From Spirochaetia bacterium (lineage in GTDB: Bacteria; Spirochaetota; Spirochaetia; CADAEX01): 64,000 nucleotides of DNA. Below the pieces are notes generated by a model. That model made no database searches. It had not been told where the DNA came from and saw only the letters and a program-made list of their open reading frames with translations. Shown one piece after another: positions 1,403-11,750 of this stretch. The first letter of the stretch is position 1. The number at the start of each line of letters is the position of its first letter. The DNA is taken from the NCBI GenBank assembly GCA_963662265.2, contig CAXXHA010000019.1:14820-78819 (forward strand). Reading direction: 5' to 3'. Both the position numbers and the translations under genes were made by a program.

Positions 1403-1954
1403 ATGGCAGATCCAAAAGCTTTAGATCTTTTCCAGGCATATCACGAAGGTAAACTTCCTCAGGATGGAGGATATATTGTATCATCTTTTTTTAATGTAAA
1501 CTCAACATATTCTATTTATGAAATTGTTGCATATGATAACGTAAAAAGCATATATGCCGGTGAAAACGGACTGACATTTCAGACTGACGGTCATAAGCTT
1601 TATGTTCTTGTTGAACCTACAAATTATGCCCATAAATATCAGGAACCATTTACACGCGGTAAAAAAGAACAGATTCCTCACAGGTTTTCTGAACTTGATA
1701 TTATTACAGCAAAAAACCAGACAAAAGTCATGATCAGTAAAAAACCTGTAGTATCATATTCATCATTTACCATTCTTAAACCTACAGGTATTAATTTTTC
1801 ACTGGTATTTTACAATCGGGAAGATGTACTGGAAACACTGGAATTCTTTTTTACACAGACTCTGAAGAAGGAAGCCGGGGTTCCGACTATAGATACAAAA
1901 AAATGCGCAAGAAGCGTAATAGCAGGGATTAAAAAATTCAAGATCTGGGATTAA
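1403..1954 (+). CDS. Hypothetical cytoplasmic protein, 183 aa
   Basis: Strong SD (TAGGAGG 1391-1397), ATG start, followed by a terminator. No recognisable domain. Confidence 0.85.
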   Translation: MADPKALDLFQAYHEGKLPQDGGYIVSSFFNVNSTYSIYEIVAYDNVKSIYAGENGLTFQTDGHKLYVLVEPTNYAHKYQEPFTRGKKEQIPHRFSELDIITAKNQTKVMISKKPVVSYSSFTILKPTGINFSLVFYNREDVLETLEFFFTQTLKKEAGVPTIDTKKCARSVIAGIKKFKIWD

Positions 1955-2042: not shown

Positions 2043-4685
2043 CTATTTGGCAAGATCTTTCAGTTCAAGCTGGGCAACTGCTAGTGTTGCTATAGGAACT
2101 GAATAAGTTGAACAGGAGACATAATCGAGTCCCGCATTACGGCAGAATTCAATATTGACAGGAACTGCACCCTGTTCCCCGCAGAGTCCAAGCTTAATGT
2201 CCGGTCTTGTCATCTTTCCTCTTCGAACTGCAAAAGATACTAGTTCCTTGACACTGGGGTTTAATATTTCAAAGGGATTGGAAGGTATAATATCAAACTG
2301 GGTATAATCAGGCATGAAGTTGTTGAAATCATCCCTTGAAAGACCCAGAGTTGTCTGGGTAAGGTCATTGGTTCCGAAAGAGAAAAACTGTGCATACTGG
2401 GCAATCTCTCCTGCAGAAAGTGCTGCAGCAGGAAGTTCAATCATTGTACCGATTTTATATTCAAGCTGTCTGGCTTTTAATGTTTTTCTAAGTTCCTCTT
2501 CAGTGGTTTTTATACCGACAATAGCTGCACCTTCAATTTTTTTGCCGTAGATTAATGCTTTTACCTCTTCCTGGTTCATGACAATAGGAATCATTATTTC
2601 AGGATTTACCTTTACACCCTCTTTCTGAAGTGTGTAGGCAGCTTCAAAAATCGCATTAATCTGCATTGCATATATTTCAGGATAGGAAATAGCAATTCTG
2701 CATCCCCTGTGACCCAGCATCGGGTTGAATTCTGAGAGAGAATCACACATGGCAGCAACATCTTTCCTTGTGATCTTTTCAAAACCTTTCTGCTTTTTAA
2801 GATAAGAGATAAACTCATCCATCTCAGCAGTATTATGGGGGAGAAATTCATGAAGAGGAGCATCCATGAGCCTGATAGTAACCTCTTTTCCCTCCATGAC
2901 TTTGAAAATCTTATAGAAATCTGTTTTCTGCATCTTCTGAATTTTAGAGAGAGTTTTCTTCCGTTTTTCAAAGTTGTCGGAAAGTATCATTTCACGGAAA
3001 ACATTAATTCTTGAAGCATCGAAAAACATATGCTCTGTACGGCAGAGACCGATTCCTTCAGCCCCGAATTTCCTGGCAAGTGAAGCATCACGGGCGTTAT
3101 CAGCATTTACCCTTACATGGAAATCTTTGCTGTATTTCTTTGAAATTGCAATGAGTTCACTTATACCGGAAGATTCATAATCAGGCTCAATAAGGTCTGC
3201 CTTTCCGATATATATTACAGGATCACCGTAGTTTGGAACATTGAGAGTGATGTAATCACCTTCATTAATCACAATATCGCCGATCTGTATTTTTTTACCC
3301 TTGTATTTTATATCATGGTTGACAAGTGAAACTTTACCGTACTGTCTTGCTACTACTGATGCATGTGCCGCATAACCGCCTTCAGAAGACAGAACACCTG
3401 TTGATACTTCTATAGCCTTAACATCTTCTGCAAAAGTTGCTTCCATGCAGAGAATCATTTTTGTATCAAGATCTTTCTGATGGGCTTCTTTCTGTGCATC
3501 CAGAAGTGCTTCTGTAGAAAAGAAAATCCTTCCTATTGCAGCCCCTGGAGCACCGGCAATACCGCCTGAAATTTTCTTCAGTTTTGTAACAGAACTTGTA
3601 TTGATAATCGGATGGAGTATTTCATTGAGCTGTTCAGGTTTCAATGAGTTGATGACATATTTGTCATCTACTATTTTCCTGTTCATAAGGTCAAGAAGCG
3701 TGATAATTTCTGATTTGACACTCTTGTTTTGTACTTCCCTCTGGTCAACCATCCAGAGAGTCTTGTTTTCAATTGTAAATCTTATATGACGAATATTTTT
3801 AAAAGTATCTTCAATAGTTCTTGCGATTTTCTCAAGCTTTGTAAGATAGTTTTTCTCAATCTTATTGATATCCTTACCTTTTGTGCCTGTAAAATCAAAA
3901 GTATTCTGGAAATATTCTCCGGAAAGCTTCTTCTCGCCGCTAATGACATTCCTGGTGAAAAAGGAACCTGCAAATGATTTGTCGCCTGTATTTCCGTATA
4001 CCATTGCCTGTACACCGATTGAAGTATCATCTTCATTCATATCATCAAGAGAAAGAAGACGGCTGACTCGGGTCAATGTGTAATCAAGCTGTTCATATGC
4101 ATCTTCACAGAAACTTTCAGGTATAAACTGCTCAGCATCTGTAATCAGTTTTACCTTGTCAGCTTCCTTTATCTTTTTTCCCAGTTTCGTGTTTATATAA
4201 TCTATTACAGTCTTTATTTTTGATGCTTTTTCATCATTTTCTTCAAGTACTGATATTTTTTCCTCAATAATGAGAATACCTTTCATCAAAAAAAACAGTT
4301 CATTGTAGGCAAAGTTTTCACCCACAAGTTTACTGAATCCTGAAAAAGTATTTTTAGTAAGACCGAAATTATGAAGAGCAGGATAACTGCTTGTAATAGT
4401 AAGATTCGGGCTTATAACAACTTTCAGAGTAAGAGGTTTTGTTTCCGCGTTAAATTTCTTACCCATTTTTGTTTCTATTTTTTCAATAAAAGGATTTATG
4501 AACTTTATTATTTTTCCTGAAGCAAGAGAAGATGCAACATCGCAGTCAATTGCAAAACCTGGGACAACGGGAAGTTTAAGACTAGCAAAGTTATTTGCTT
4601 CCCGGTTTCTGCCCCCTATTTTTTCAAGAATTGACGGATTTTTTATAAACTCATTTTCACTGAAATAGTGTATGTTTTTTTTCAT
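2043..4685 (-). CDS. ppdK: Pyruvate phosphate dikinase-like protein with a degenerate ATP-grasp domain (intact phospho-His and PEP/pyruvate domains)
   Basis: Retains GGYAAHASVVAR (H441), GIGLCRTEHMF, RLMDAPLHEFLP, EFNPMLGHRGCR, FSFGTNDLTQ and GLCGE (C835). The N-domain motifs VSVRSGA, GEDVV and QDMEF are replaced. Confidence 0.85.
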   Translation of the reverse strand: MKKNIHYFSENEFIKNPSILEKIGGRNREANNFASLKLPVVPGFAIDCDVASSLASGKIIKFINPFIEKIETKMGKKFNAETKPLTLKVVISPNLTITSSYPALHNFGLTKNTFSGFSKLVGENFAYNELFFLMKGILIIEEKISVLEENDEKASKIKTVIDYINTKLGKKIKEADKVKLITDAEQFIPESFCEDAYEQLDYTLTRVSRLLSLDDMNEDDTSIGVQAMVYGNTGDKSFAGSFFTRNVISGEKKLSGEYFQNTFDFTGTKGKDINKIEKNYLTKLEKIARTIEDTFKNIRHIRFTIENKTLWMVDQREVQNKSVKSEIITLLDLMNRKIVDDKYVINSLKPEQLNEILHPIINTSSVTKLKKISGGIAGAPGAAIGRIFFSTEALLDAQKEAHQKDLDTKMILCMEATFAEDVKAIEVSTGVLSSEGGYAAHASVVARQYGKVSLVNHDIKYKGKKIQIGDIVINEGDYITLNVPNYGDPVIYIGKADLIEPDYESSGISELIAISKKYSKDFHVRVNADNARDASLARKFGAEGIGLCRTEHMFFDASRINVFREMILSDNFEKRKKTLSKIQKMQKTDFYKIFKVMEGKEVTIRLMDAPLHEFLPHNTAEMDEFISYLKKQKGFEKITRKDVAAMCDSLSEFNPMLGHRGCRIAISYPEIYAMQINAIFEAAYTLQKEGVKVNPEIMIPIVMNQEEVKALIYGKKIEGAAIVGIKTTEEELRKTLKARQLEYKIGTMIELPAAALSAGEIAQYAQFFSFGTNDLTQTTLGLSRDDFNNFMPDYTQFDIIPSNPFEILNPSVKELVSFAVRRGKMTRPDIKLGLCGEQGAVPVNIEFCRNAGLDYVSCSTYSVPIATLAVAQLELKDLAK

Positions 4686-4703: not shown

Positions 4704-5723
4704 TTAAAATAGTTTAAGTATTGCATTAACAGGGAATTTGAGAAAATCTTCAAATCTCTGACTTGCACCCTGCTTCAGATATCGCTGAAGCTTTGCAACA
4801 TCTTTTATATCCCTGCCGGCAACTGCAAACATGATTGCACTGCCGTGTTTAACCTTTCCCCATTTGAAGAGTGTATTGATATCATGTATCCTTTCCCCTT
4901 CATAGAATATAATAACTTCAAGTCCGGGATATTTTGTTTTGTAGCTTGTTATAATTCTTTTCCATGCTTCAACATTACCGTTATGGAAAAGCTCATTTGT
5001 TACAGGAACTGAATATAGAGGAGTCATTCTTGCATTTGTAGGTACCGGAGCTGCTGATGGTTTCTGTACTTCCTGTGGCTTTGCTTCAGGAGTTTTTACT
5101 GCTGCGGTATTTTTAGCAGTTTTTGCTGATGCAGCTTTTTTTCTTCCTGCAGTTTTCTTTGGTTCAGATGTTTTCTTTGCCATTTTAACTGTATACTTCC
5201 CATTCAAGACAGAAGGCGGTACTTTATATTTTTTATTTTCAAGAATATTAATTACAGCATTTATTGCTGATACATGATTTTTACTGTTTTTACTGCCTGC
5301 ATGATCGCCGGCATATATTGTTATAAGCTCAAAATTCTTTAAACCGCCTGTAAGATTCCAGCTGTCAGCTTTTTTTGGATTAAAAACTACATAACCGATA
5401 TTCGGATTATGGTATCCAATGACAATGTCTACCCCTTTCCAGCCGGAAAGTATCTCTGTAATTTCATCAAATTTATCAAAAGTTTCCTTCATATTGTAGG
5501 ATTTGAAACTGAACCCATATTTATCCGCAAGAAGAGAGTTTACAATAGGAAGAACCTGATGCTGTTCTATTGTATTGTCATCAAGATATTCATTAATGGA
5601 ATCTGCAATGTTATCGTAAGATTCGAAGTTATCGATTATTGATAATACAGACTGGAAATGATTTAAAGAATTATTAAAACCCTTACGTGTATAAAAGCGT
5701 TCATATTCTTTTACATCAGTCAT
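4704..5723 (-). CDS. cfpA-associated protein (TP0747-like position): unknown N-domain, Lys/Ala/Pro linker, C-terminal HPr-like domain
   Basis: Likely start is ATG 5723 after AGGCAGGGT; the longer TTG start lies inside the cfpA terminator. C-terminus VPVTNELFH...EVIIFYEGERI...GKVKHGSAIMFAVAGRD aligns by eye with HPr. Confidence 0.8.
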   Translation of the reverse strand: MTDVKEYERFYTRKGFNNSLNHFQSVLSIIDNFESYDNIADSINEYLDDNTIEQHQVLPIVNSLLADKYGFSFKSYNMKETFDKFDEITEILSGWKGVDIVIGYHNPNIGYVVFNPKKADSWNLTGGLKNFELITIYAGDHAGSKNSKNHVSAINAVINILENKKYKVPPSVLNGKYTVKMAKKTSEPKKTAGRKKAASAKTAKNTAAVKTPEAKPQEVQKPSAAPVPTNARMTPLYSVPVTNELFHNGNVEAWKRIITSYKTKYPGLEVIIFYEGERIHDINTLFKWGKVKHGSAIMFAVAGRDIKDVAKLQRYLKQGASQRFEDFLKFPVNAILKLF

Positions 5724-5742: not shown

Positions 5743-5779
5743 AAAATAGAAAAAGTTGGCAGCCTTAAAGCTGCCAACT
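5743..5779 (-). terminator. Intrinsic terminator/attenuator after cfpA
   Basis: 10-bp stem AGTTGGCAGC/GCTGCCAACT (5754-5763 and 5770-5779) with a 6-nt loop, followed on the minus strand by TTTTCTATTTTT. Confidence 0.85.
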
Positions 5780-5798: not shown

Positions 5799-7844
5799 CT
5801 AAATAGTAGTAAGTTTGTTACCGGATGATTTTCTTCTTCCGGGTTTTTTCTTTTTTGAATTATCAACTATTCCTGTTGATTTTTTCCGTCCCCGTTTTGT
5901 TGGTTCAGGTTTTTCGACAGTAAGAGCCTGTTCAATTTCTGGATTTTCTGAAGATGTGTTGTTTAAGAGGTCAAGGTAGCTTTCACCTGCGTTTTCACCA
6001 TCTTCTTCCGGGAGATCAGTAGTAAAAGACTGGTTAATATCGCTTCTTACAGTAGATCTTCTTCTTGAGAATGCTGCAAATGCCGCATCCTGGAATCCTT
6101 TTGATACACCGTAAAGGAATTCATTAAGAACATTAGCCATTCCGTCAAGTGTTGCTTTTTTTCTCTTGATTGAAGTTATATCTAGATCAAGGAACAGACC
6201 AGGCTGTACATGGTACGGATTTATCATGTAGTCAAAAGAGTTGAATTTCTTTTCAAGATTATCAATTCTTTCTTCCATAACTCTTCTCTGTATCGGATAT
6301 TTGTATCCATACATTTCATGAAGCCGTTTTTTCATTATGATGAATCTCTTTTTAACCTTGTCTTTTTCAAAAACATAAGTCCTGTTGAGTTCTTCAACAC
6401 TTGTTTCTGCAGGTTTTACAAAGGAAATCTCATCCCATACTTTTTCAATATCTTCATAAACAGGATCGCCTGTCTTGGATTTAATTGTTTTTGTTATCTT
6501 GTTTTTATAAGCTTTAGCAAGATCTTCGAAATCTGTTACACCTTTGAAACGTTTCGCATCCTGATAAACCATTTCAAGAATATCCCATACATGTGAGCAT
6601 TCAACTTCGAAAGACTTGATCTGAACATCATAAGCTTTCTGCTCTTCAATAAGCTGAGCATTGTCATAGTATCTGAGTCTGATCTGGTATCTTTCATCAG
6701 GAAGGTTCTGAACATCTGTATCTTCATATTCTCTTATAAGAAGTTCTCTTCCGTTTTTAAGGTTTTCAATATACTGGTAACCCATTTTTGAAGTATCAAG
6801 AATTGAAGTAATAGAGTTTACAGCTGTGTTGTAACCCCTGTTTCTGATATTTTCGATATCAATTATTTTTTTAAGATTTTCCCTGATATTGAGCTGATCA
6901 AAACTTTCAGGATCAATTTCAGCTCTCAGACCGTCAATTGCATCCATAAGGTTTTTGGCAACCATAGAATATCTTTTTGATTTGGGACTTGTCTTGTCAT
7001 CATCAGTATGATTTTCAACAAGTTTCATCTTTTCGAAAATTATTTCACTGTCAGTCAGTTCCTCTTTACCTTCATCAATAAGAAGATCTTTAACATTTTC
7101 AATTTCTTTGTCCAGAAGATCTGTAATATTTTTTGAGATGAGTTCTTTTATAAGATATTCAACTGTAGCCTGATAATGAAAAATCGGACTGATAAGTTCA
7201 GAGTCCAGAATATTTACAGACATTTTAACATCACAAACTGTTTTAGGTTTGTATGCATTGTCTTTAAATGCACATTTAACAACTGAATATGCATTTTCAC
7301 CCCTGATAAAGGCACCTACATCTGTTTTCTGTCTAAGGAGAGAGTTAGTCAGGTTTTCAAGCTCATTAACTCCTCTCTGGATGTGGCCCTGAAGGTGACC
7401 GTACATATTAACAATCGATTTTTCAATTTCACCGGTGTTGAATTTGTCCATTCCACCGACTTCATCAAGAAGTGATGCAATTTCCTTAGGTGTATACCGG
7501 TTGAGGACTTTCATTTCCTCTTTGTCTATGAAATTTCGTACCTTTTTAACCATTTCATCTTCAGATGTAACAATATATCTGTTGAACATGTTCTGGTAAT
7601 TCTGGTTAAAATAGTTATAGACTTTTTCTTTAAGTCCACCCATTATGTCGACTTTTTCTAGAACTTCAAGAGGAAGTTTTGATGATAAGTGATTCATCAC
7701 TTTATCTACTTCTTCTGCAAGAAGTCTATCAACCTCTTCCTGCTGATCCCTGCTTTCCTGAGCAAGAGAGTTCCTGGATCCTACAGCACTGGGCTTTTCA
7801 GGATGGAAAACCATCGGGCTTTTTGGTAGATCAATACTTCCCAT
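5799..7844 (-). CDS. cfpA: Cytoplasmic filament protein A
   Basis: 681 aa helical protein with the CfpA-type N-terminus ([25 protein letters not shown]) and C-terminal [29 protein letters not shown]. Lies upstream of a ppdK homologue, as I recall for Treponema pallidum. Confidence 0.93.
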
Positions 7845-7922: not shown

Positions 7923-8263
7923 CATGTTTAATGGAAATTATATATTTTAATTAGAGAACGATTAAATCAACAAATCTGCAATTAATTAAAAATACTAATC
8001 AGATTATACGGAAAATAATTATATAATTCAAACACATTTTTTAAAAATAAGTATTTGTAATATTTTGTTCAGAATATTATGATTAAAGAGACTATGAAAC
8101 GGGTTTTTTATTTTCCGTATTTTCATTACTTATAAGGAAAATAATAATTTATAAACAACAGGCATGTTAAAAATACTGTCTGTAAAAATGACTGCAAAGA
8201 TTTAAGTAAGCAATAATATTTAAAACCCGGAAATATAGGTTTAATAATGAAAAGGTGCTTAAT

Positions 8264-9631
8264 ATGTTAAAAAAAATTATTCTCTGCTTGCTGGTTTTAG
8301 TTAATTCATTTTTTGTTTTTTCAGATGAAAGAAAGGAAAATATTGAAATATTCATACTGCTGGATAAATCTCTTTCAATGGAAAACAATATTGAAGAAGT
8401 AAAAAACTACATAGAAAGCTTCATAATTGATAAAATAATCATAGACGGCGACAGGTTGTTAATAATAAATTTCTACGGTGAAACAGAAAGATTTCTTGAT
8501 ACTGTAGTAGCAAATGAAAACGCAAGGAATGATGTTAAAAGAAGACTCGAAACAGTCTCAGCCGACGGACGTTTTACCGATATAGGAAGCGCACTGGACA
8601 GACTGAATGAAACCGCAGGTGATGAAACTGAAACACTCAGGTATATGCTTCTGATAACTGACGGTAAGCAGGAAGCTCCTCCCGGAACAAAATATTACAG
8701 CCCTGATGGAAGTTTTAACCATGAACTTCTAAAACATACAAAAACAATACAGAAGAAGGGGTGGAAAATAGAAGTACTTGGGATTGGAAAGCTGAATAAA
8801 GCAGCAGATATAGCTGAAAAACTGTCAGGTACCTATGTTGAAGTTGAAAAAGCAGATGCATTAGATCTTGCAGAAAAAACATCTGATTTTCTGACAGTTG
8901 TTTCAGTAAAAGATAAACCAGTAATTGGAAAATTAAACAGTAAAAATGAATCCTCTATGACTTTCACAGCTGTTTCCTCAAATACTGATGAAAATACTGA
9001 AATAGTAATAGAATCAATAAAGTTTTCAGACAGTAAAACTGTTTATGAAATGATAGAGGAACCTTTTGAAATTAATATAATACCTGGTACTGAAAATGAA
9101 ATAAAAATCCCGGTAAAGTTAAGCAGAGATATTGATCCCGGAACTGCAAATGGAAGCATTGAATTCTTCTATTCATCTGAAAACATTCTGACCCCTTCCC
9201 TTTTCGACATGGAATTGGTAAAAAAAGAAGGTTTCAAAGCTGTTTATATTTATATACCGGCAGTAATTATAATTATTCTGATTCTTTTTCTTTTCTTAGG
9301 CAGATATCTGAAAAAAGGGGGAAAAGAGGAGGACAGAGGTTTTGATGTTTTTATTGACAATGAAAAGCTTTCAGAAATACCATATAAACTTAAAAACAAT
9401 GAAAAACTGTTTCTGTTATTAAATACTGCAGGTGAATTATCCTTATCAAGAATAAAATCATCACTTGCAAAAGGCTATATTATAAAAACAGGAAGTAAAG
9501 TTGATTTTAAAATACTGGACAGCAAGATATTCCCTGATTTCAAGGATAAAATTGATAATATATTGGGAAAAACTGTAAATATTAAATTAAAAAGCGGTAA
9601 ATTGCTGAAAATTCTTTTTAAGAGGAAATAA
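8264..9631 (+). CDS. Secreted vWA-domain protein with C-proximal TM helix (TP0750-like)
   Basis: Signal peptide. MIDAS motif LLDKSLS...FTDIG...LLITDG. TM segment VYIYIPAVIIIILILFLFLG. Confidence 0.85.
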   Translation: MLKKIILCLLVLVNSFFVFSDERKENIEIFILLDKSLSMENNIEEVKNYIESFIIDKIIIDGDRLLIINFYGETERFLDTVVANENARNDVKRRLETVSADGRFTDIGSALDRLNETAGDETETLRYMLLITDGKQEAPPGTKYYSPDGSFNHELLKHTKTIQKKGWKIEVLGIGKLNKAADIAEKLSGTYVEVEKADALDLAEKTSDFLTVVSVKDKPVIGKLNSKNESSMTFTAVSSNTDENTEIVIESIKFSDSKTVYEMIEEPFEINIIPGTENEIKIPVKLSRDIDPGTANGSIEFFYSSENILTPSLFDMELVKKEGFKAVYIYIPAVIIIILILFLFLGRYLKKGGKEEDRGFDVFIDNEKLSEIPYKLKNNEKLFLLLNTAGELSLSRIKSSLAKGYIIKTGSKVDFKILDSKIFPDFKDKIDNILGKTVNIKLKSGKLLKILFKRK

Positions 9632-10749
9632 TGAATTTTACAACCCTTTTTTTTGATAAAGGGGGTATTAAAAAAGATATACCCGGCTTTACTGAATATT
9701 TTTCTTCATCAGAACTCGGGTTCTGGGGCGAATATACTTTTCTGGATTTTGCATTATTTATAATAAATCCGGATAAAAGTTTTTTTATCTGTGACAGGGA
9801 AATACGGAAAAACATCAATAACATTCTGATGAAATGGGATGAAAAAAACTATGATTTTTTTACATATCAGAACGATTTTGATACTGTAAAGAATTTCCTG
9901 AACAAAATAGAGGATGAAATCATAATTTTTTATGATATTAATTTTGCTGCTGTTGCGGAAACAGATGAATTAAAGAAAGCTGTAGATGATTTTGCAGATG
10001 ATAAAAAGGAGACAATATCCAAAATATCAATAAATTCAGTACCTGTTGATATTTATATAGCTGATAAGAATTATTTGGTACAGCAGATGGATATTCTGAG
10101 GAACAGAATACAGTCTGATTCTTATGTTTTTGATTTTATTATAGAAGAAATACTGGCAACAGGTTTTGAAGAAATAAGAGATTTAAAGGGTGAAATACTG
10201 TTTAACAGCAGCGTGAACCAGTTTTTAATAAATAATTTATCTCTGCTGAATAAAGAAGCAGGAGATATTATGGATGATTTTATGAAATATACCCCACCCC
10301 CACATGAGAAGGAATCATTTATCGGAAAAAAAGGGGAAGTCGTAAATTCCATAATTTCTTCCAATTCAAGAATAGATGGATATGTGGAGAATTCTGTTAT
10401 TTTTTCGGGTGTAACAGTTAAGCAGAATGCTGTTATCAAAAACTCGGTGATAATGAACGGTAATCAGATTGGTAAATTTGTAAACATTGAAAATTCTATT
10501 ATTCTACCGAATTTGAAACAGCAGGGTAATAATTCAAATATTCAGGACAGGAGTATTATCGGAGGAAAATCCAGAGTAAAGAACAAAGATTATCCTGAAC
10601 ATATATTTGGCGGTATTACCGTGATTGGTATGAACAGCACAATACCTGTAAAATTTGTGGCAGAACCTGGATCTTTAATAGGTGCCGATGTTACAGCAGC
10701 CCGGTTAAAGGAATTAAAAAAGGTTAAAAAAAGTGGTTCAGTTATATGA
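9631..10749 (+). CDS. GlgC/GlgD-family-like protein with left-handed beta-helix; nucleotidyltransferase motif absent
   Basis: C-terminal VVNSIISSNSRIDGYVENSVIFSGVTVKQNAVIKNSVIM...GGITVIG is typical of ADP-glucose pyrophosphorylases. No ILAGGxGxRL at the N-terminus. Confidence 0.7.
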   Translation: MNFTTLFFDKGGIKKDIPGFTEYFSSSELGFWGEYTFLDFALFIINPDKSFFICDREIRKNINNILMKWDEKNYDFFTYQNDFDTVKNFLNKIEDEIIIFYDINFAAVAETDELKKAVDDFADDKKETISKISINSVPVDIYIADKNYLVQQMDILRNRIQSDSYVFDFIIEEILATGFEEIRDLKGEILFNSSVNQFLINNLSLLNKEAGDIMDDFMKYTPPPHEKESFIGKKGEVVNSIISSNSRIDGYVENSVIFSGVTVKQNAVIKNSVIMNGNQIGKFVNIENSIILPNLKQQGNNSNIQDRSIIGGKSRVKNKDYPEHIFGGITVIGMNSTIPVKFVAEPGSLIGADVTAARLKELKKVKKSGSVI

Positions 10750-11750
10750 AAAACCTAAAAAGATTTTATAATTATCTGGATAAATATGATAAATTTATTC
10801 TGACAGCACATGAAAATCCTGACGGGGATGCGATAGGAAGCGAATATGCGTTATGCCGTCATTTGAAAAACTGCGGGATAATAGCAAGAATTATCACTTG
10901 TGAGACTATACCTGATAAATACAGCTTCATTGACCAGGATAATCTTATTGAGTTTGTTGCTTCTGCAGATGATCTGCCTGATAATTTAAATGAATATGCA
11001 CTTATTATTCTTGATACAAACACACCATATAATACAGGAATGATATACAGTTTTATAAAGGAAGAAATAAAAGATATTTTTATTATTGATCATCATGAAA
11101 ATCCTGATGAAGATTCAATTACAGATTATAACTGTATAGAAACAGAAGCCTCTTCATCGAGTGAAATTGTTTACCGGATAATTAACAACAGCAAACGAAA
11201 CAGTGATATATCATTTGACATGGCACAGGCGATGTATGCCGGTATAGTCTATGATACAGGTTCATTTATATATCCTAAAACAGGCGATCAGACACTTGCT
11301 ATAGCTGCAAGTCTTGTTAAAACAGGAATTAAACCCAATTACATATATTCACAGATGTATGAAAGCAGCAGCCTTTCAGCTCTGAAGCTTCATTCAAAGG
11401 TTTTTTCTGATATTGAATTTTATCATAATCACAGAACTGCTCTTCAGATAATGACAAGAGATATTCTCAGGAAATTCAATGCTTCATACGAAGATGGAGA
11501 TACCATCATAAACATACCGTTAAAGTGCAAAGATATTAAAATATCAGTTTTTTTCAAGGAAAATAAAAAGGGAATACTGCGCTGTTCAATGAGATCAAAG
11601 GATAACCTTGATGTTGCCTCAATCGCAAGGAGTTTCGGAGGTGGCGGACATACAACAGCCGCAGGCTTTAAATGCAATGAACCACTTGAAATTGTCCGGA
11701 AAAAAGTGTTAAAAGAAATTAAAAAAATATTAGGGCTGATAATAAAATGA
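10746..11750 (+). CDS. nrnA: DHH/DHHA1 phosphoesterase (NrnA/DhhP-like nanoRNase/pAp phosphatase)
   Basis: HENPDGDAIGS, IIDHH, YDTGSF, SMRS and FGGGGHTTAAG motifs. Confidence 0.92.
   Translation: MKNLKRFYNYLDKYDKFILTAHENPDGDAIGSEYALCRHLKNCGIIARIITCETIPDKYSFIDQDNLIEFVASADDLPDNLNEYALIILDTNTPYNTGMIYSFIKEEIKDIFIIDHHENPDEDSITDYNCIETEASSSSEIVYRIINNSKRNSDISFDMAQAMYAGIVYDTGSFIYPKTGDQTLAIAASLVKTGIKPNYIYSQMYESSSLSALKLHSKVFSDIEFYHNHRTALQIMTRDILRKFNASYEDGDTIINIPLKCKDIKISVFFKENKKGILRCSMRSKDNLDVASIARSFGGGGHTTAAGFKCNEPLEIVRKKVLKEIKKILGLIIK

What the first reader, a model, noticed from the sequence alone, without database searches (positions are those of the whole stretch)
4707..5027. Cryptic HPr-like domain at the C-terminus of the cfpA-adjacent hypothetical protein
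The last ~105 aa (LYSVPVTNELFHNGNVEAWKRIITSY...LEVIIFYEGERIHDINTLFKWGKVKHGSAIMFAVAGRDIKDVAKLQRYL) follow the HPr pattern (xxxVTNxxGLHARPAxxLVxxAxxF...xITLxYxGKxVNAKSIMxLMxLGVxxGxxIxIxAxGxDExxAxxxL). The order and spacing of strands and helices match, and a His (codon 4985-4983) caps helix 1 like His15. The Arg17 and Ser46 equivalents differ (HNGN; DINTL). This would explain why standard HPr profiles might miss it and suggests a non-canonical partner. The domain hangs on a flexible Lys/Ala/Pro linker, consistent with a swinging phosphocarrier.
Basis: partly seen in the sequence, partly recalled or inferred. Interest (0 to 1): 0.82.

Follow-up and report, generated by a model that had tools for sequence, protein, structure and literature searches.

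The report
HPr-fold domain beside degenerate PPDK paralog
The small gene between the spirochaete cytoskeleton gene cfpA and a degenerate pyruvate-phosphate-dikinase copy encodes two HPr-shaped domains, and the last one keeps a histidine where HPr carries its phosphate, which suggests an unrecognised PEP-driven phosphorelay.

Summary
Window 4707-5027 (-) encodes the last 107 aa of a 339-aa protein of the TP_0747 family. It follows a disordered Lys/Ala/Pro linker.

- **Histidine:** His247 sits directly before helix 1 and is His in 202 of 205 homologues.
- **Family signatures:** Arg17 and Ser46 equivalents are Gly and Asp. No HPr HMM matches, and profile-profile similarity is only suggestive (P about 0.03).

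- The neighbouring "PPDK" is a divergent paralog. It keeps the catalytic His and the PEP/pyruvate site but has lost most invariant ATP-grasp residues, so it resembles Enzyme I in logic.
- This paralog lies next to the gene in 21 of 21 genomes that carry it and in 0 of 40 that lack it. The genomes also carry canonical HPr.

Phosphotransfer itself is untested. The fold claim is strong (about 0.9). The phosphocarrier reading is plausible (about 0.35).

The parts
4704..5723 (-). Gene for the 339-aa TP_0747-family protein (called X here), stop codon included
   Evidence: ORF and translation. The start at ATG 5723 agrees with the N-termini of homologues. All 120 listed homologues carry the precomputed PF27497, which the Atlas names TP_0747_N.
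4707..5027 (-). C-terminal domain (residues 233-339). The HPr-fold core is residues 236-323 (4755-5018), followed by a short C-terminal helix and tail.
4983..4985 (-). Codon of His247, the residue at the HPr His15-equivalent position
   Evidence: CAT. It is residue 15 of the domain and helix 1 starts at 16. It is His in 202 of 205 near-complete domains and in 21 of 21 genome copies retrieved by HMM. Low-confidence extended hhalign places it on HPr His15.
5028..5195 (-). Lys/Ala/Thr/Pro-rich disordered linker (residues 177-232)
   Evidence: pLDDT below 50 for 183-226. Composition and mean pairwise identity of 0.26. Length varies among homologues.
5232..5513 (-). First HPr-fold domain (residues 71-164), a pseudo-HPr with Phe85 near the His15-equivalent position
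5514..5690 (-). N-terminal three-helix segment (residues 12-70) preceding the first HPr fold
2043..4685 (-). PPDK-derived paralog (called PPDK* here), 880 aa, 18 nt downstream of X. The PEP/pyruvate domain and catalytic His are kept and the ATP-grasp domain is degenerate.
   Evidence: TIGR01828 scores 666.9 bits, below the cut-off of 843.45. Pfam scores for the paralog against the genome's own canonical PPDK: PPDK_N 27.6 against 188.7 bits, mobile domain 33.0 against 82.9, PEP-utilizers_C 236.3 against 261.9. Residue comparison. Separate clade with branch length 1.52 and support 1.0.
3363..3365 (-). Codon of His441 of PPDK*, the phospho-histidine of the swivel domain (GGYAAHASVVAR)
   Evidence: H441 is invariant in 43 paralogs. 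It aligns with the His of the canonical GGMTSHAAVVAR motif.
5799..7844 (-). cfpA, the cytoplasmic filament protein gene, upstream on the same strand
   Evidence: NF040882 scores 1180.5 bits against a cut-off of 500.
5754..5779 (-). Terminator-like hairpin (11 pairs, 6 G-C, then TTTTCTATTT) between cfpA and X
   Evidence: This is a consensus scan only, not evidence of function.

Best explanation
The C-terminal 107 residues are a true HPr-fold domain. It is the second of two HPr folds in a spirochaete-specific TP_0747-family protein, and it hangs on a disordered basic linker. Its most conserved surface is the loop carrying His247, the first half of helix 1, and helix 2 with its following loop. 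These are the elements that form the phosphorylation and docking face in HPr.

The gene forms an invariant two-gene module with a PPDK-derived paralog. That paralog keeps its phospho-histidine and its PEP/pyruvate site but has lost most conserved ATP-grasp residues. It should therefore still be able to charge its own His from PEP, but probably cannot pass the phosphoryl group to AMP/PPi.

The most likely mechanism is an Enzyme I/HPr-like pair built from PPDK: PEP to His441 of the paralog to His247 of the tethered HPr-like domain. In most lineages the module is encoded beside cfpA and probably acts at the CfpA filament ribbon.

Shown here: the fold, the position and conservation of the His, the linkage to the paralog, and the decay of the paralog's ATP-grasp domain. 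Inferred: binding between the two proteins, phosphorylation of His247, and location at the filament.
For: **Fold**
- The C-domain model has pLDDT 91.9.
- Foldseek ranks 1-34 are all HPr/Crh.

**Histidine**
- It sits at the residue before helix 1.
- It is His in 202 of 205 homologues and in 21 of 21 genome copies found by HMM.
- The three exceptions have also lost the FKWGKVKHG patch.

**Conserved face**
- 13 of 15 positions in the loop plus the first half of helix 1 are at least 95% conserved.
- 7 of 14 in helix 2 plus its loop reach that level, against 0 of 20 strand positions.

**Weak in-register sequence signal to HPr**
- hhalign P = 0.028; 5 of 200 column-shuffled controls reach the score.
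- Extended alignments put His on His15.

**Context**
- PPDK* lies directly downstream in 80 of 80 loci.
- In a 61-genome phylum sample, PPDK* is adjacent to X in 21 of 21 X-positive genomes, including 3 where X is unlinked from cfpA. It is absent from the 40 X-negative genomes.
- Of the 21 X-positive genomes in that sample, 20 also have a canonical PPDK elsewhere.

**PPDK* residues**
- Of columns at least 95% invariant in 20 canonical PPDKs, the ATP-grasp part keeps 24 of 132 and changes 92.
- The PEP/pyruvate domain keeps 102 of 129 and changes 15.
- The catalytic His and the RTEHMFF, NPMLGHRGCR, FGTNDLTQ and GLCGE motifs are kept.

**Literature (passages read)**
- In T. denticola, TDE0842-0844 (cfpA, hypothetical protein, putative PPDK) are co-repressed (PMC3914990, Table 5).
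Against: - No phosphorylation data exist and none can be obtained here.
- The HPr signature is not met: Gly stands at the Arg17 position and Asp/Asn at Ser46, and there is no PF00381 hit.
- The whole loop is as conserved as the His, so conservation does not single out the His as catalytic.
- Enzyme I binds HPr through a helical subdomain that PPDK lacks (recalled knowledge).
- One 1.1-Mb genome (G082, 99% complete) has only the paralog and no canonical PPDK. The literature treats the syphilis spirochaete's single PPDK as a working glycolytic enzyme (PMC10013896, passages). The paralog may therefore still use nucleotide in some altered way.
- The paralog's N-domain is itself strongly conserved within its clade, so it is not decaying; it has some function.
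- Solvent exposure of His247 could not be checked.
Confidence: 0.35

Rival explanations
1. Non-phosphorylated adaptor. The two HPr folds are reused as protein-binding modules that tether or regulate the PPDK paralog at the CfpA ribbon or inner membrane. His247 is a structural helix N-cap or contact residue and is never phosphorylated. HPr itself is known to bind and regulate metabolic enzymes without phosphotransfer; glycogen phosphorylase and Rsd complexes appear among the hits.
For: - The N-terminal HPr fold has no His yet is conserved, so the fold is used here without phosphotransfer at least once.
- Arg17 and Ser46 equivalents are absent.
- The whole face, not only the His, is conserved.
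- HPr complexes with glycogen phosphorylase, Rsd, FruR and CcpA appear among the structural matches.
- The soluble-type enzyme TDE0844 is a major band of the T. denticola envelope fraction together with CfpA (PMC3931704, Table 2).
- X shows perfect co-occurrence with the paralog.
Against: - A His kept in 202 of 205 homologues exactly at the phospho-acceptor position, beside an enzyme that keeps a phospho-His and a PEP site but has lost its normal acceptor site, would then be a coincidence.
- Asn, Ser or Asp are commoner helix N-caps than His (general knowledge).
Confidence: 0.35
2. Filament or nucleoid accessory with no functional tie to the paralog. The C-domain binds CfpA, and its basic linker may bind DNA or membrane. 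On this reading it would be one of the unidentified bridging or anchoring parts of the cytoplasmic filament ribbon, and the adjacency to the paralog reflects co-expression only.
For: - X and cfpA co-occur: cfpA is in 20 of 61 genomes, and X is in the same 20 plus one where the contig ends just after X.
- cfpA is upstream in 78 of 80 loci; the other two are too short to tell.
- One protein (P0263, 841 aa) is a CfpA-X N-domain fusion.
- C-domain identity (0.82) resembles that of CfpA (70-94%) more than that of the paralog (53-91%, mostly about 60%).
- GRP (AT-hook-like) cores occur in 25 of 180 linkers, against 2.8% of shuffled linkers.
Against: - X stays next to the paralog in the 3 genomes where it has left cfpA (G010, G011, G039).
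- The paralog clade is found only with X.
- A terminator-like hairpin separates cfpA from X, while X and the paralog are 18 nt apart.
- A search for longer fused forms found none, so P0263 is a single case and could be a gene-calling artefact.
Confidence: 0.15
3. Convergent or common fold. The b-a-b-b-a-b-a sandwich arose independently, the resemblance to HPr says nothing about origin or function, and the aligned His is a coincidence.
For: - No HMM-level similarity.
- hhalign probability is 1.8%.
- All Foldseek E-values are above 1e-3.
Against: - HPr alone fills the top ranks in two aligners, with a gap to the next fold.
- Both domains give weak but structurally in-register profile alignments.
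- The neighbour belongs to the PEP-utiliser superfamily that includes HPr's natural kinase.
Confidence: 0.1

Closest known systems
HPr (PtsH), the histidine phosphocarrier of the PTS (Pfam PF00381), with its relatives Crh and NPr
   Same: - It has the same open-faced b-a-b-b-a-b-a sandwich.
- A His sits immediately before helix 1.
- The conserved face is made of the His loop, helix 1 and helix 2.
- It is encoded beside a PEP-utilising enzyme with a phospho-His swivel domain.
   Different: - No PF00381 match.
- Gly stands at the Arg17 position and Asp at Ser46.
- It is about 20 residues longer, with an extra C-terminal helix.
- It is fused behind a second, His-less HPr fold and a three-helix segment.
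- It is not next to EI or EII genes. The genome has its own canonical HPr genes (one beside an HprK-like gene) and four EI-family genes.
- Canonical HPr is present in 61 of 61 sampled Spirochaetota, so this protein does not replace it.
The Enzyme I / HPr pair of the PTS
   Same: The logic is the same: a PEP-binding TIM-barrel domain plus a phospho-His swivel domain, without a working nucleotide site, encoded next to a small His-bearing HPr-fold protein.
   Different: - The enzyme is derived from PPDK, not from EI (TIGR01828 667 bits against TIGR01417 115 bits).
- It keeps a conserved but remodelled ATP-grasp-like N-domain instead of EI's helical HPr-binding subdomain (the EI architecture is recalled).
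- No EII partner is evident.
- Transfer between the two proteins is not shown.
Canonical pyruvate, phosphate dikinase (TIGR01828), e.g. maize 1vbg and Clostridium symbiosum 1kbl
   Same: The neighbour has the same three-domain order and length. Its best PDB sequence matches are PPDKs (489 bits to 1vbg). The catalytic His and PEP/pyruvate motifs are kept.
   Different: - It scores below the family cut-off.
- It forms a separate clade.
- The GGKGA Lys becomes Arg, SVRSGA..SMPGMMDT is replaced, NAQGEDVVAGIRTP is deleted, DMQDIEFT becomes eIRsIRFT, and LQTR becomes iDQR.
- That these motifs bind nucleotide and Mg in C. symbiosum PPDK is recalled, not tested here.
TP_0747 family (Pfam 38.1 PF27497, TP_0747_N)
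   Same: The protein is a member. All 120 listed homologues carry the precomputed PF27497, and the Atlas clusters name it TP_0747_N.
   Different: That Pfam family covers only the N-terminal domain. No Pfam family is listed for the C-terminal domain in those sources. I could not read the Pfam entry text, so I cannot say whether its curators noted an HPr fold.

Membership tests
PTS HPr (PF00381) | Open-faced beta-sandwich, b-a-b-b-a-b-a topology | tested here: met
   [not shown]
PTS HPr (PF00381) | Phospho-acceptor His at the N-terminus of helix 1 (His15) | tested here: met
   His247 is domain residue 15 and helix 1 starts at 16. It is His in 202 of 205 homologues. It is placed on His15 in low-confidence extended hhalign. 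Its exposure was not measured.
PTS HPr (PF00381) | Arg17 of the G-x-H-x-R-P signature | tested here: not met
   The motif is F-H-N-G-N. Gly249 (202 of 205) stands at the Arg17 position. The genome's own HPrs have GIHARPA and GLHARPA.
PTS HPr (PF00381) | Regulatory Ser46 at the N-cap of helix 2 (in HprK-regulated HPrs) | tested here: not met
   Asp281 (167 of 205; Asn in 27) aligns with Ser46.
PTS HPr (PF00381) | Match to the family profile or detectable sequence homology | tested here: not met
   No PF00381 hit at E up to 1. The family profile finds no HPr chain among PDB sequences at E up to 10. hhalign against 31 spirochaete HPrs gives probability 1.8% and P 0.028, and 5 of 200 shuffles reach the score. 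This is suggestive only.
PTS HPr (PF00381) | Phosphorylated by a PEP-dependent enzyme and passes the phosphate on | not testable with these tools
   This needs biochemistry.
TP_0747 family (PF27497 TP_0747_N) | N-terminal domain matching PF27497 | tested here: met
   The window's own protein cluster (P0003, 100% identical) and all 120 listed homologues carry the precomputed PF27497.1. The name comes from the Atlas. The model is not in the local Pfam copy.
Pyruvate, phosphate dikinase (TIGR01828), for the neighbouring gene | Score over the curated cut-off | tested here: not met
   666.9 bits against a cut-off of 843.45. All 21 X-adjacent copies score 620-740 bits, while canonical copies score 1265-1465.
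Pyruvate, phosphate dikinase (TIGR01828), for the neighbouring gene | Conserved ATP-grasp (nucleotide-binding) residues | tested here: not met
   24 of 132 canonical-invariant columns are kept and 92 are changed. PPDK_N scores 27.6 bits against 188.7 in the genome's own canonical PPDK.
Pyruvate, phosphate dikinase (TIGR01828), for the neighbouring gene | Catalytic His of the swivel domain and the PEP/pyruvate site | tested here: met
   H441 is invariant in 43 paralogs. In the C-terminal domain, 102 of 129 canonical-invariant columns are kept. PEP-utilizers_C scores 236.3 bits.
PTS Enzyme I (TIGR01417), for the neighbouring gene | Score over the curated cut-off | tested here: not met
   115.2 bits against a cut-off of 341.7. 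The resemblance to EI is one of logic, not of family.

The most novel reading that the evidence does not exclude
Cytoplasmic-filament-bearing spirochaetes carry a PTS-independent, PEP-driven phosphorelay built from a PPDK duplicate. The duplicate's ATP-grasp site was converted into something else, perhaps a dock for the HPr-like domain. The relay also uses a tandem-HPr-fold carrier that swings on a basic linker at the CfpA ribbon. In the most reduced genome examined (G082) this paralog is the only PPDK-type enzyme. If that holds, the last step of glycolysis there would hand the PEP phosphoryl group to a protein histidine rather than, or before, making ATP from AMP and PPi. That would revise the textbook energy budget of such treponemes and link carbon flux to the cytoskeleton.
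Probability: 0.2. Interest if true: 0.88.

Novelty: new variant of a known kind. Interest (0 to 1): 0.72.

Why it matters
- **Function for an unannotated family.** TP_0747-family proteins are annotated as hypothetical in every named source I saw. I found no paper that discusses them: searches for TP0747 and TP_0747 returned 0 papers, and TDE0843 appears in one table only.
- **A concrete, cheap experiment.** Showing that the protein is a tandem HPr-fold protein locked to a PPDK paralog with a dead-looking nucleotide site gives a direct test: PEP-dependent phosphotransfer to His247.
- **Candidate filament components.** It offers a candidate identity for unknown components associated with the treponemal cytoplasmic filament.
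- **Annotation caveat.** The gene annotated as PPDK next to cfpA in treponemes belongs to a divergent clade. In at least one reduced genome it is the only copy. This bears on metabolic reconstructions of uncultivable or fastidious spirochaetes.
- **A new context for the fold.** It would also be an example of the HPr fold recruited outside the sugar PTS.

Tried and rejected
- **Complex prediction.** Complex prediction with the paralog (alignment A3, 880 aa) and the C-domain (A2, 107 aa) gave "no answer" (ipSAE 0.01 and 0.00 against a mark of 0.32; controls were not run).
- **Protein Atlas.** A search on the C-domain alone (named clusters, PF27497 skipped) gave no usable hit. On the whole protein it only returned its own family.
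- **Sequence searches.** Pfam and NCBIfam scans of the protein and of the C-domain gave nothing significant; the best was ubiquitin at E 0.13. phmmer and profile searches of PDB sequences gave no relevant hit.
- **Fused forms.** The search for longer fused forms found none. The tool says this is weak evidence.
- **Odd architectures.** P0240 (X N-domain plus a LigA fragment) looks like a chimeric call and was not pursued.
- **Full-model Foldseek.** The search with the full model gave HPr hits but does not say which of the two domains matched, so I do not use it for the C-domain.
- **A circular count.** The count of His in 80 of 80 loci is circular, because those loci were retrieved with a pattern containing NELFHN. 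I rely instead on the 205 domains from HMMER searches and the 21 genome copies found by HMM.
- **Residue roles.** I found no paper in the library giving the roles of PPDK ATP-grasp residues. Those roles are recalled.
- **Not examined.** Supplementary files of papers were not opened; transcript or proteome tables there might show TP_0747 or TDE0843 expression. Solvent exposure of His247 and per-residue structural alignment could not be obtained, because no coordinates are returned.
Full report
**Observation**

Codon 4985-4983 is CAT, His. The peptide is the C-terminus of a 339-aa protein, which I call X. Its ATG is at 5723 and its stop at 4704-4706. The start agrees with the N-termini of homologues.

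X lies between cfpA (5799-7844; NF040882 1180.5 bits against a cut-off of 500) and a PPDK-like gene (2043-4685). All three are on the minus strand. X ends 18 nt before the PPDK-like gene. A terminator-like hairpin (11 pairs, T-rich tail) lies between cfpA and X at 5779-5754.

**Family and conservation**

X has 3197 homologues in the 90%-cluster database. All named ones are hypothetical proteins of Spirochaet* organisms, and all 120 listed carry the precomputed PF27497. The Atlas names this family TP_0747_N. The full HMMER scan finds 191 clusters at 50% identity. The local Pfam and NCBIfam copies give no significant hit for X or for its C-terminal part.

Conservation by region, in a 30-sequence alignment:

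| Region | Mean pairwise identity |
|---|---|
| N-domain | 0.49 |
| Linker | 0.26 |
| C-domain | 0.82 |

The linker (residues 177-232) contains K12, A12, T7 and P6 of 56. It is predicted disordered, with pLDDT below 50 for 183-226.

**Fold of the C-domain**

The model was built with a 46-sequence alignment and has pLDDT 91.9 and pTM 0.87. Its strands are at 5-8, 37-42, 45-47 and 64-70. Its helices are at 16-32, 50-53 and 77-87, with a short extra helix at 90-95. This is the HPr order of elements. The His is domain residue 15, directly before helix 1.

Foldseek against the PDB puts HPr or Crh at every rank from 1 to 34 (E 5e-3 to 8e-2, probability 0.94-1.00, TM normalised to target 0.54-0.70). 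The first other fold, MoaE, follows at rank 35. No match reaches E 1e-3.

VIA-align does not depend on Foldseek and compares all 48,161 representative chains. Its top four are all HPr:

**A second HPr fold**

X is therefore a three-helix segment, an HPr fold, a linker, and a second HPr fold. The first copy has no His near the His15 position; conserved Phe85 stands there. It is a pseudo-HPr.

**Sequence-level relation to HPr**

I extracted 31 spirochaete HPr proteins from genome loci and compared profiles with hhalign.
- The C-domain aligns to HPr with score 16.3, P 0.028, probability 1.8%, over 50 columns. The alignment is in the structurally correct register, from strand 2 to helix 3.
- 5 of 200 column-shuffled HPr alignments reach that score, and the reversed alignment scores 9.4.
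- The N-domain aligns residues 110-164 to HPr 38-84 with P 0.0075-0.021, also in register.
- Extended alignments of very low confidence place His247 on His15, Gly249 on Arg17 and Asp281 on Ser46.

This is suggestive of remote homology but does not establish it.

**The histidine and the conserved face**

I collected 205 near-complete C-domains from the two HMMER-scored searches. Position 247 is His in 202 of them, and Ser, Gln or Asn in one each. The three exceptions are the most divergent members and have also lost the FKWGKVKHG patch.

In 21 genome copies found by HMM rather than by motif, all 21 have His.

Neighbouring residues are equally conserved: N243 in 204, F246 in 203, G249 in 202, N250 in 205 and W254 in 202 of 205. 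Conservation is concentrated as follows:

| Element | Positions at least 95% conserved |
|---|---|
| Loop 9-15 plus first half of helix 1 | 13 of 15 |
| Helix 2 with the following loop | 7 of 14 |
| Strands | 0 of 20 |

By position in the fold, the two conserved elements are the ones that make the active and docking face of HPr. The role of that face in HPr is established knowledge that I recall.

**Genomic context**

In the 80 best loci from species-representative genomes, the PPDK-like gene follows X in 80 of 80. cfpA precedes X in 78 of 80; the other two have only about 300 bases upstream.

Results for an evenly drawn sample of 61 Spirochaetota genomes:

| Gene | Genomes with it |
|---|---|
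| Canonical HPr | 61 of 61 |
| cfpA | 20 of 61 |
| X | 21 of 61 |

The 21 genomes with X are the 20 with cfpA plus G048, where the contig ends 64 bases after X.

The PPDK search showed two classes.
- **Canonical copies** score 1265-1465 bits.
- **Copies scoring 620-740 bits** fall below the cut-off of 843. These lie directly beside X in 21 of 21 X-positive genomes. No full-length copy of this kind appears in the 40 genomes without X. The only other sub-cut-off matches are contig-end fragments (G010, G050) and four proteins of about 1470-1510 aa that match only the N-domain.

X is adjacent to cfpA in 16 of the 21. It is elsewhere in 3 (G010, G011, G039) and undetermined at contig ends in 2 (G036, G048). 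In the three unlinked cases X stays next to the low-scoring PPDK.

The window's genome has a canonical PPDK on another contig (1329 bits). It also has two stand-alone HPr genes with the GIHARPA and GLHARPA signatures, one beside an HprK-like gene, and four EI-family genes. X is therefore not a replacement for HPr.

**The neighbouring enzyme**

I aligned 20 canonical spirochaete PPDKs with 65 X-adjacent paralogs. Of 311 columns at least 95% invariant in the canonical set, the paralogs keep 149 and change 133. The split by domain is sharp:

| Part (numbering of the genome's own canonical PPDK) | Kept | Changed | Total |
|---|---|---|---|
| ATP-grasp, positions 1-349 | 24 | 92 | 132 |
| PEP/pyruvate domain, positions 550-885 | 102 | 15 | 129 |

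Specific changes in the paralogs:
- In GGKGA, Lys becomes Arg in 98%.
- SVRSGA..SMPGMMDT becomes KiViSPnL.I.YPtLHN.
- NAQGEDVVAGIRTP is deleted.
- DMQDIEFT becomes eIRsIRFT.
- LQTR becomes iDQR.

The following are kept: the swivel-domain His (GGYsAHASVVAR; His441 is invariant in 43 paralogs), RTEHMFF, NPMLGHRGCR, FFSFGTNDLTQ and GLCGEHG.

Pfam scores tell the same story:

| Pfam domain | Paralog (bits) | Own canonical PPDK (bits) |
|---|---|---|
| PPDK_N | 27.6 | 188.7 |
| Mobile domain | 33.0 | 82.9 |
| PEP-utilizers_C | 236.3 | 261.9 |

In a FastTree tree, 22 paralogs separate from the 20 canonical enzymes by a branch of 1.52 with support 1.0. That the changed motifs bind nucleotide and Mg in the Clostridium symbiosum enzyme is my recollection. 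A search of the paper library for those residue names found nothing.

The paralog's N-domain is itself well conserved within the clade, so it has a function, but probably not the ancestral one.

**A caveat from a reduced genome**

In a family-level sample, G082 (1.1 Mb, one contig, 99% complete) has only the low-scoring type (608.5 bits), again directly beside X. Its X keeps the full NELFHNGNVEAWK and FKWGKVKHG motifs.

Papers on the syphilis spirochaete describe its single PPDK, TP0746, as the enzyme that most likely converts PEP, AMP and PPi to pyruvate and ATP (PMC10013896, passages read). They list cfpA as TPANIC_0748 (PMC8525777, passages read).

If the paralog type is the sole PEP-to-pyruvate enzyme in such organisms, there are two possibilities. 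Either it still uses nucleotide in an altered way, or the phosphoryl acceptor is something else. This cuts both ways for the phosphocarrier idea, and I count it as the main uncertainty.

**Experimental hints from the literature (passages read only)**

In T. denticola, TDE0842 (cfpA), TDE0843 (conserved hypothetical) and TDE0844 (putative PPDK) are repressed together in co-culture (PMC3914990, Table 5). [quoted passage not shown] That TDE0843 is the X orthologue is inferred from gene order. No paper in the library mentions TP0747 or TP_0747. TDE0843 appears only in that one table.

**Interpretation**

Shown:
- an HPr fold with a conserved His at the acceptor position;
- a second HPr fold;
- an invariant module with a PPDK paralog that keeps PEP and His chemistry but not the ATP-grasp signature;
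- frequent linkage and co-occurrence with cfpA.

Inferred: the paralog charges its His from PEP and passes the phosphoryl group to His247. This would be an EI/HPr-like pair made from PPDK, acting at the filament.

The chief rival is a non-phosphorylated adaptor or regulator that uses the HPr face only for binding. I rate the two about equally. The fold claim itself I rate at about 0.9.

**Membership**

The domain fails the sequence tests of the HPr family: there is no profile match, no Arg17 and no Ser46. I do not file it as an HPr. It has the fold and may work like one.

**Steps that gave nothing**

The complex prediction gave no answer. These steps are listed under Tried and rejected.

Noticed in passing
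[not shown]
   Followed up: partly
window 2043-4685 (-); G082:C1:810752-813313: The PPDK next to X is a separate clade with a degenerate ATP-grasp domain. One 1.1-Mb, 99%-complete genome (G082) has only this type and no canonical PPDK.
   Followed up: partly
window 5754-5779 (-): A strong terminator-like hairpin lies between cfpA and X, while X and the PPDK paralog are 18 nt apart. This suggests cfpA is largely transcribed on its own and X is co-transcribed with the paralog.
   Followed up: no
window 5028-5195 (-) and the linkers of homologues; cfpA tail at window 5802-5900 (-): The linker is basic (mean K+R 0.19). An AT-hook-like GRP core occurs in 25 of 180 homologue linkers, against 2.8% of shuffled linkers. 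The window's copy has AGRKK instead. The CfpA C-terminal tail is also basic ([12 protein letters not shown]).
   Followed up: partly
protein P0263 (841 aa): A single protein fuses CfpA (residues 8-594, 626.8 bits) to the X N-domain (residues 620-832). It may be a real fusion or a missed stop. The search for longer forms found no others.
   Followed up: partly
G011:C18, G039:C47, G051:C8, G026:C49: Open frames of about 1470-1510 aa have an N-terminal part that matches only positions 17-335 of the PPDK model (231-249 bits). This is another architecture using the PPDK nucleotide-binding domain.
   Followed up: no
L001 (G000:C10) and L002 (G000:C1): The genome has two canonical stand-alone HPr genes. 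One lies directly downstream of an HprK-like 322-aa gene, and the other lies beside a small gene that looks like a sorbitol-type EIIA (my reading of the sequence, not tested). It also has four EI-family genes.
   Followed up: no
window 1403-1954 (+): A 183-aa ORF lies downstream of and convergent with the PPDK paralog and has no Pfam match. The other neighbours look unrelated to the module: a TPR protein (3-1298), a VWA-domain protein (8255-9631), a hexapeptide-repeat protein (9631-10749) and a DHH/DHHA1 protein (10746-11750).
   Followed up: no
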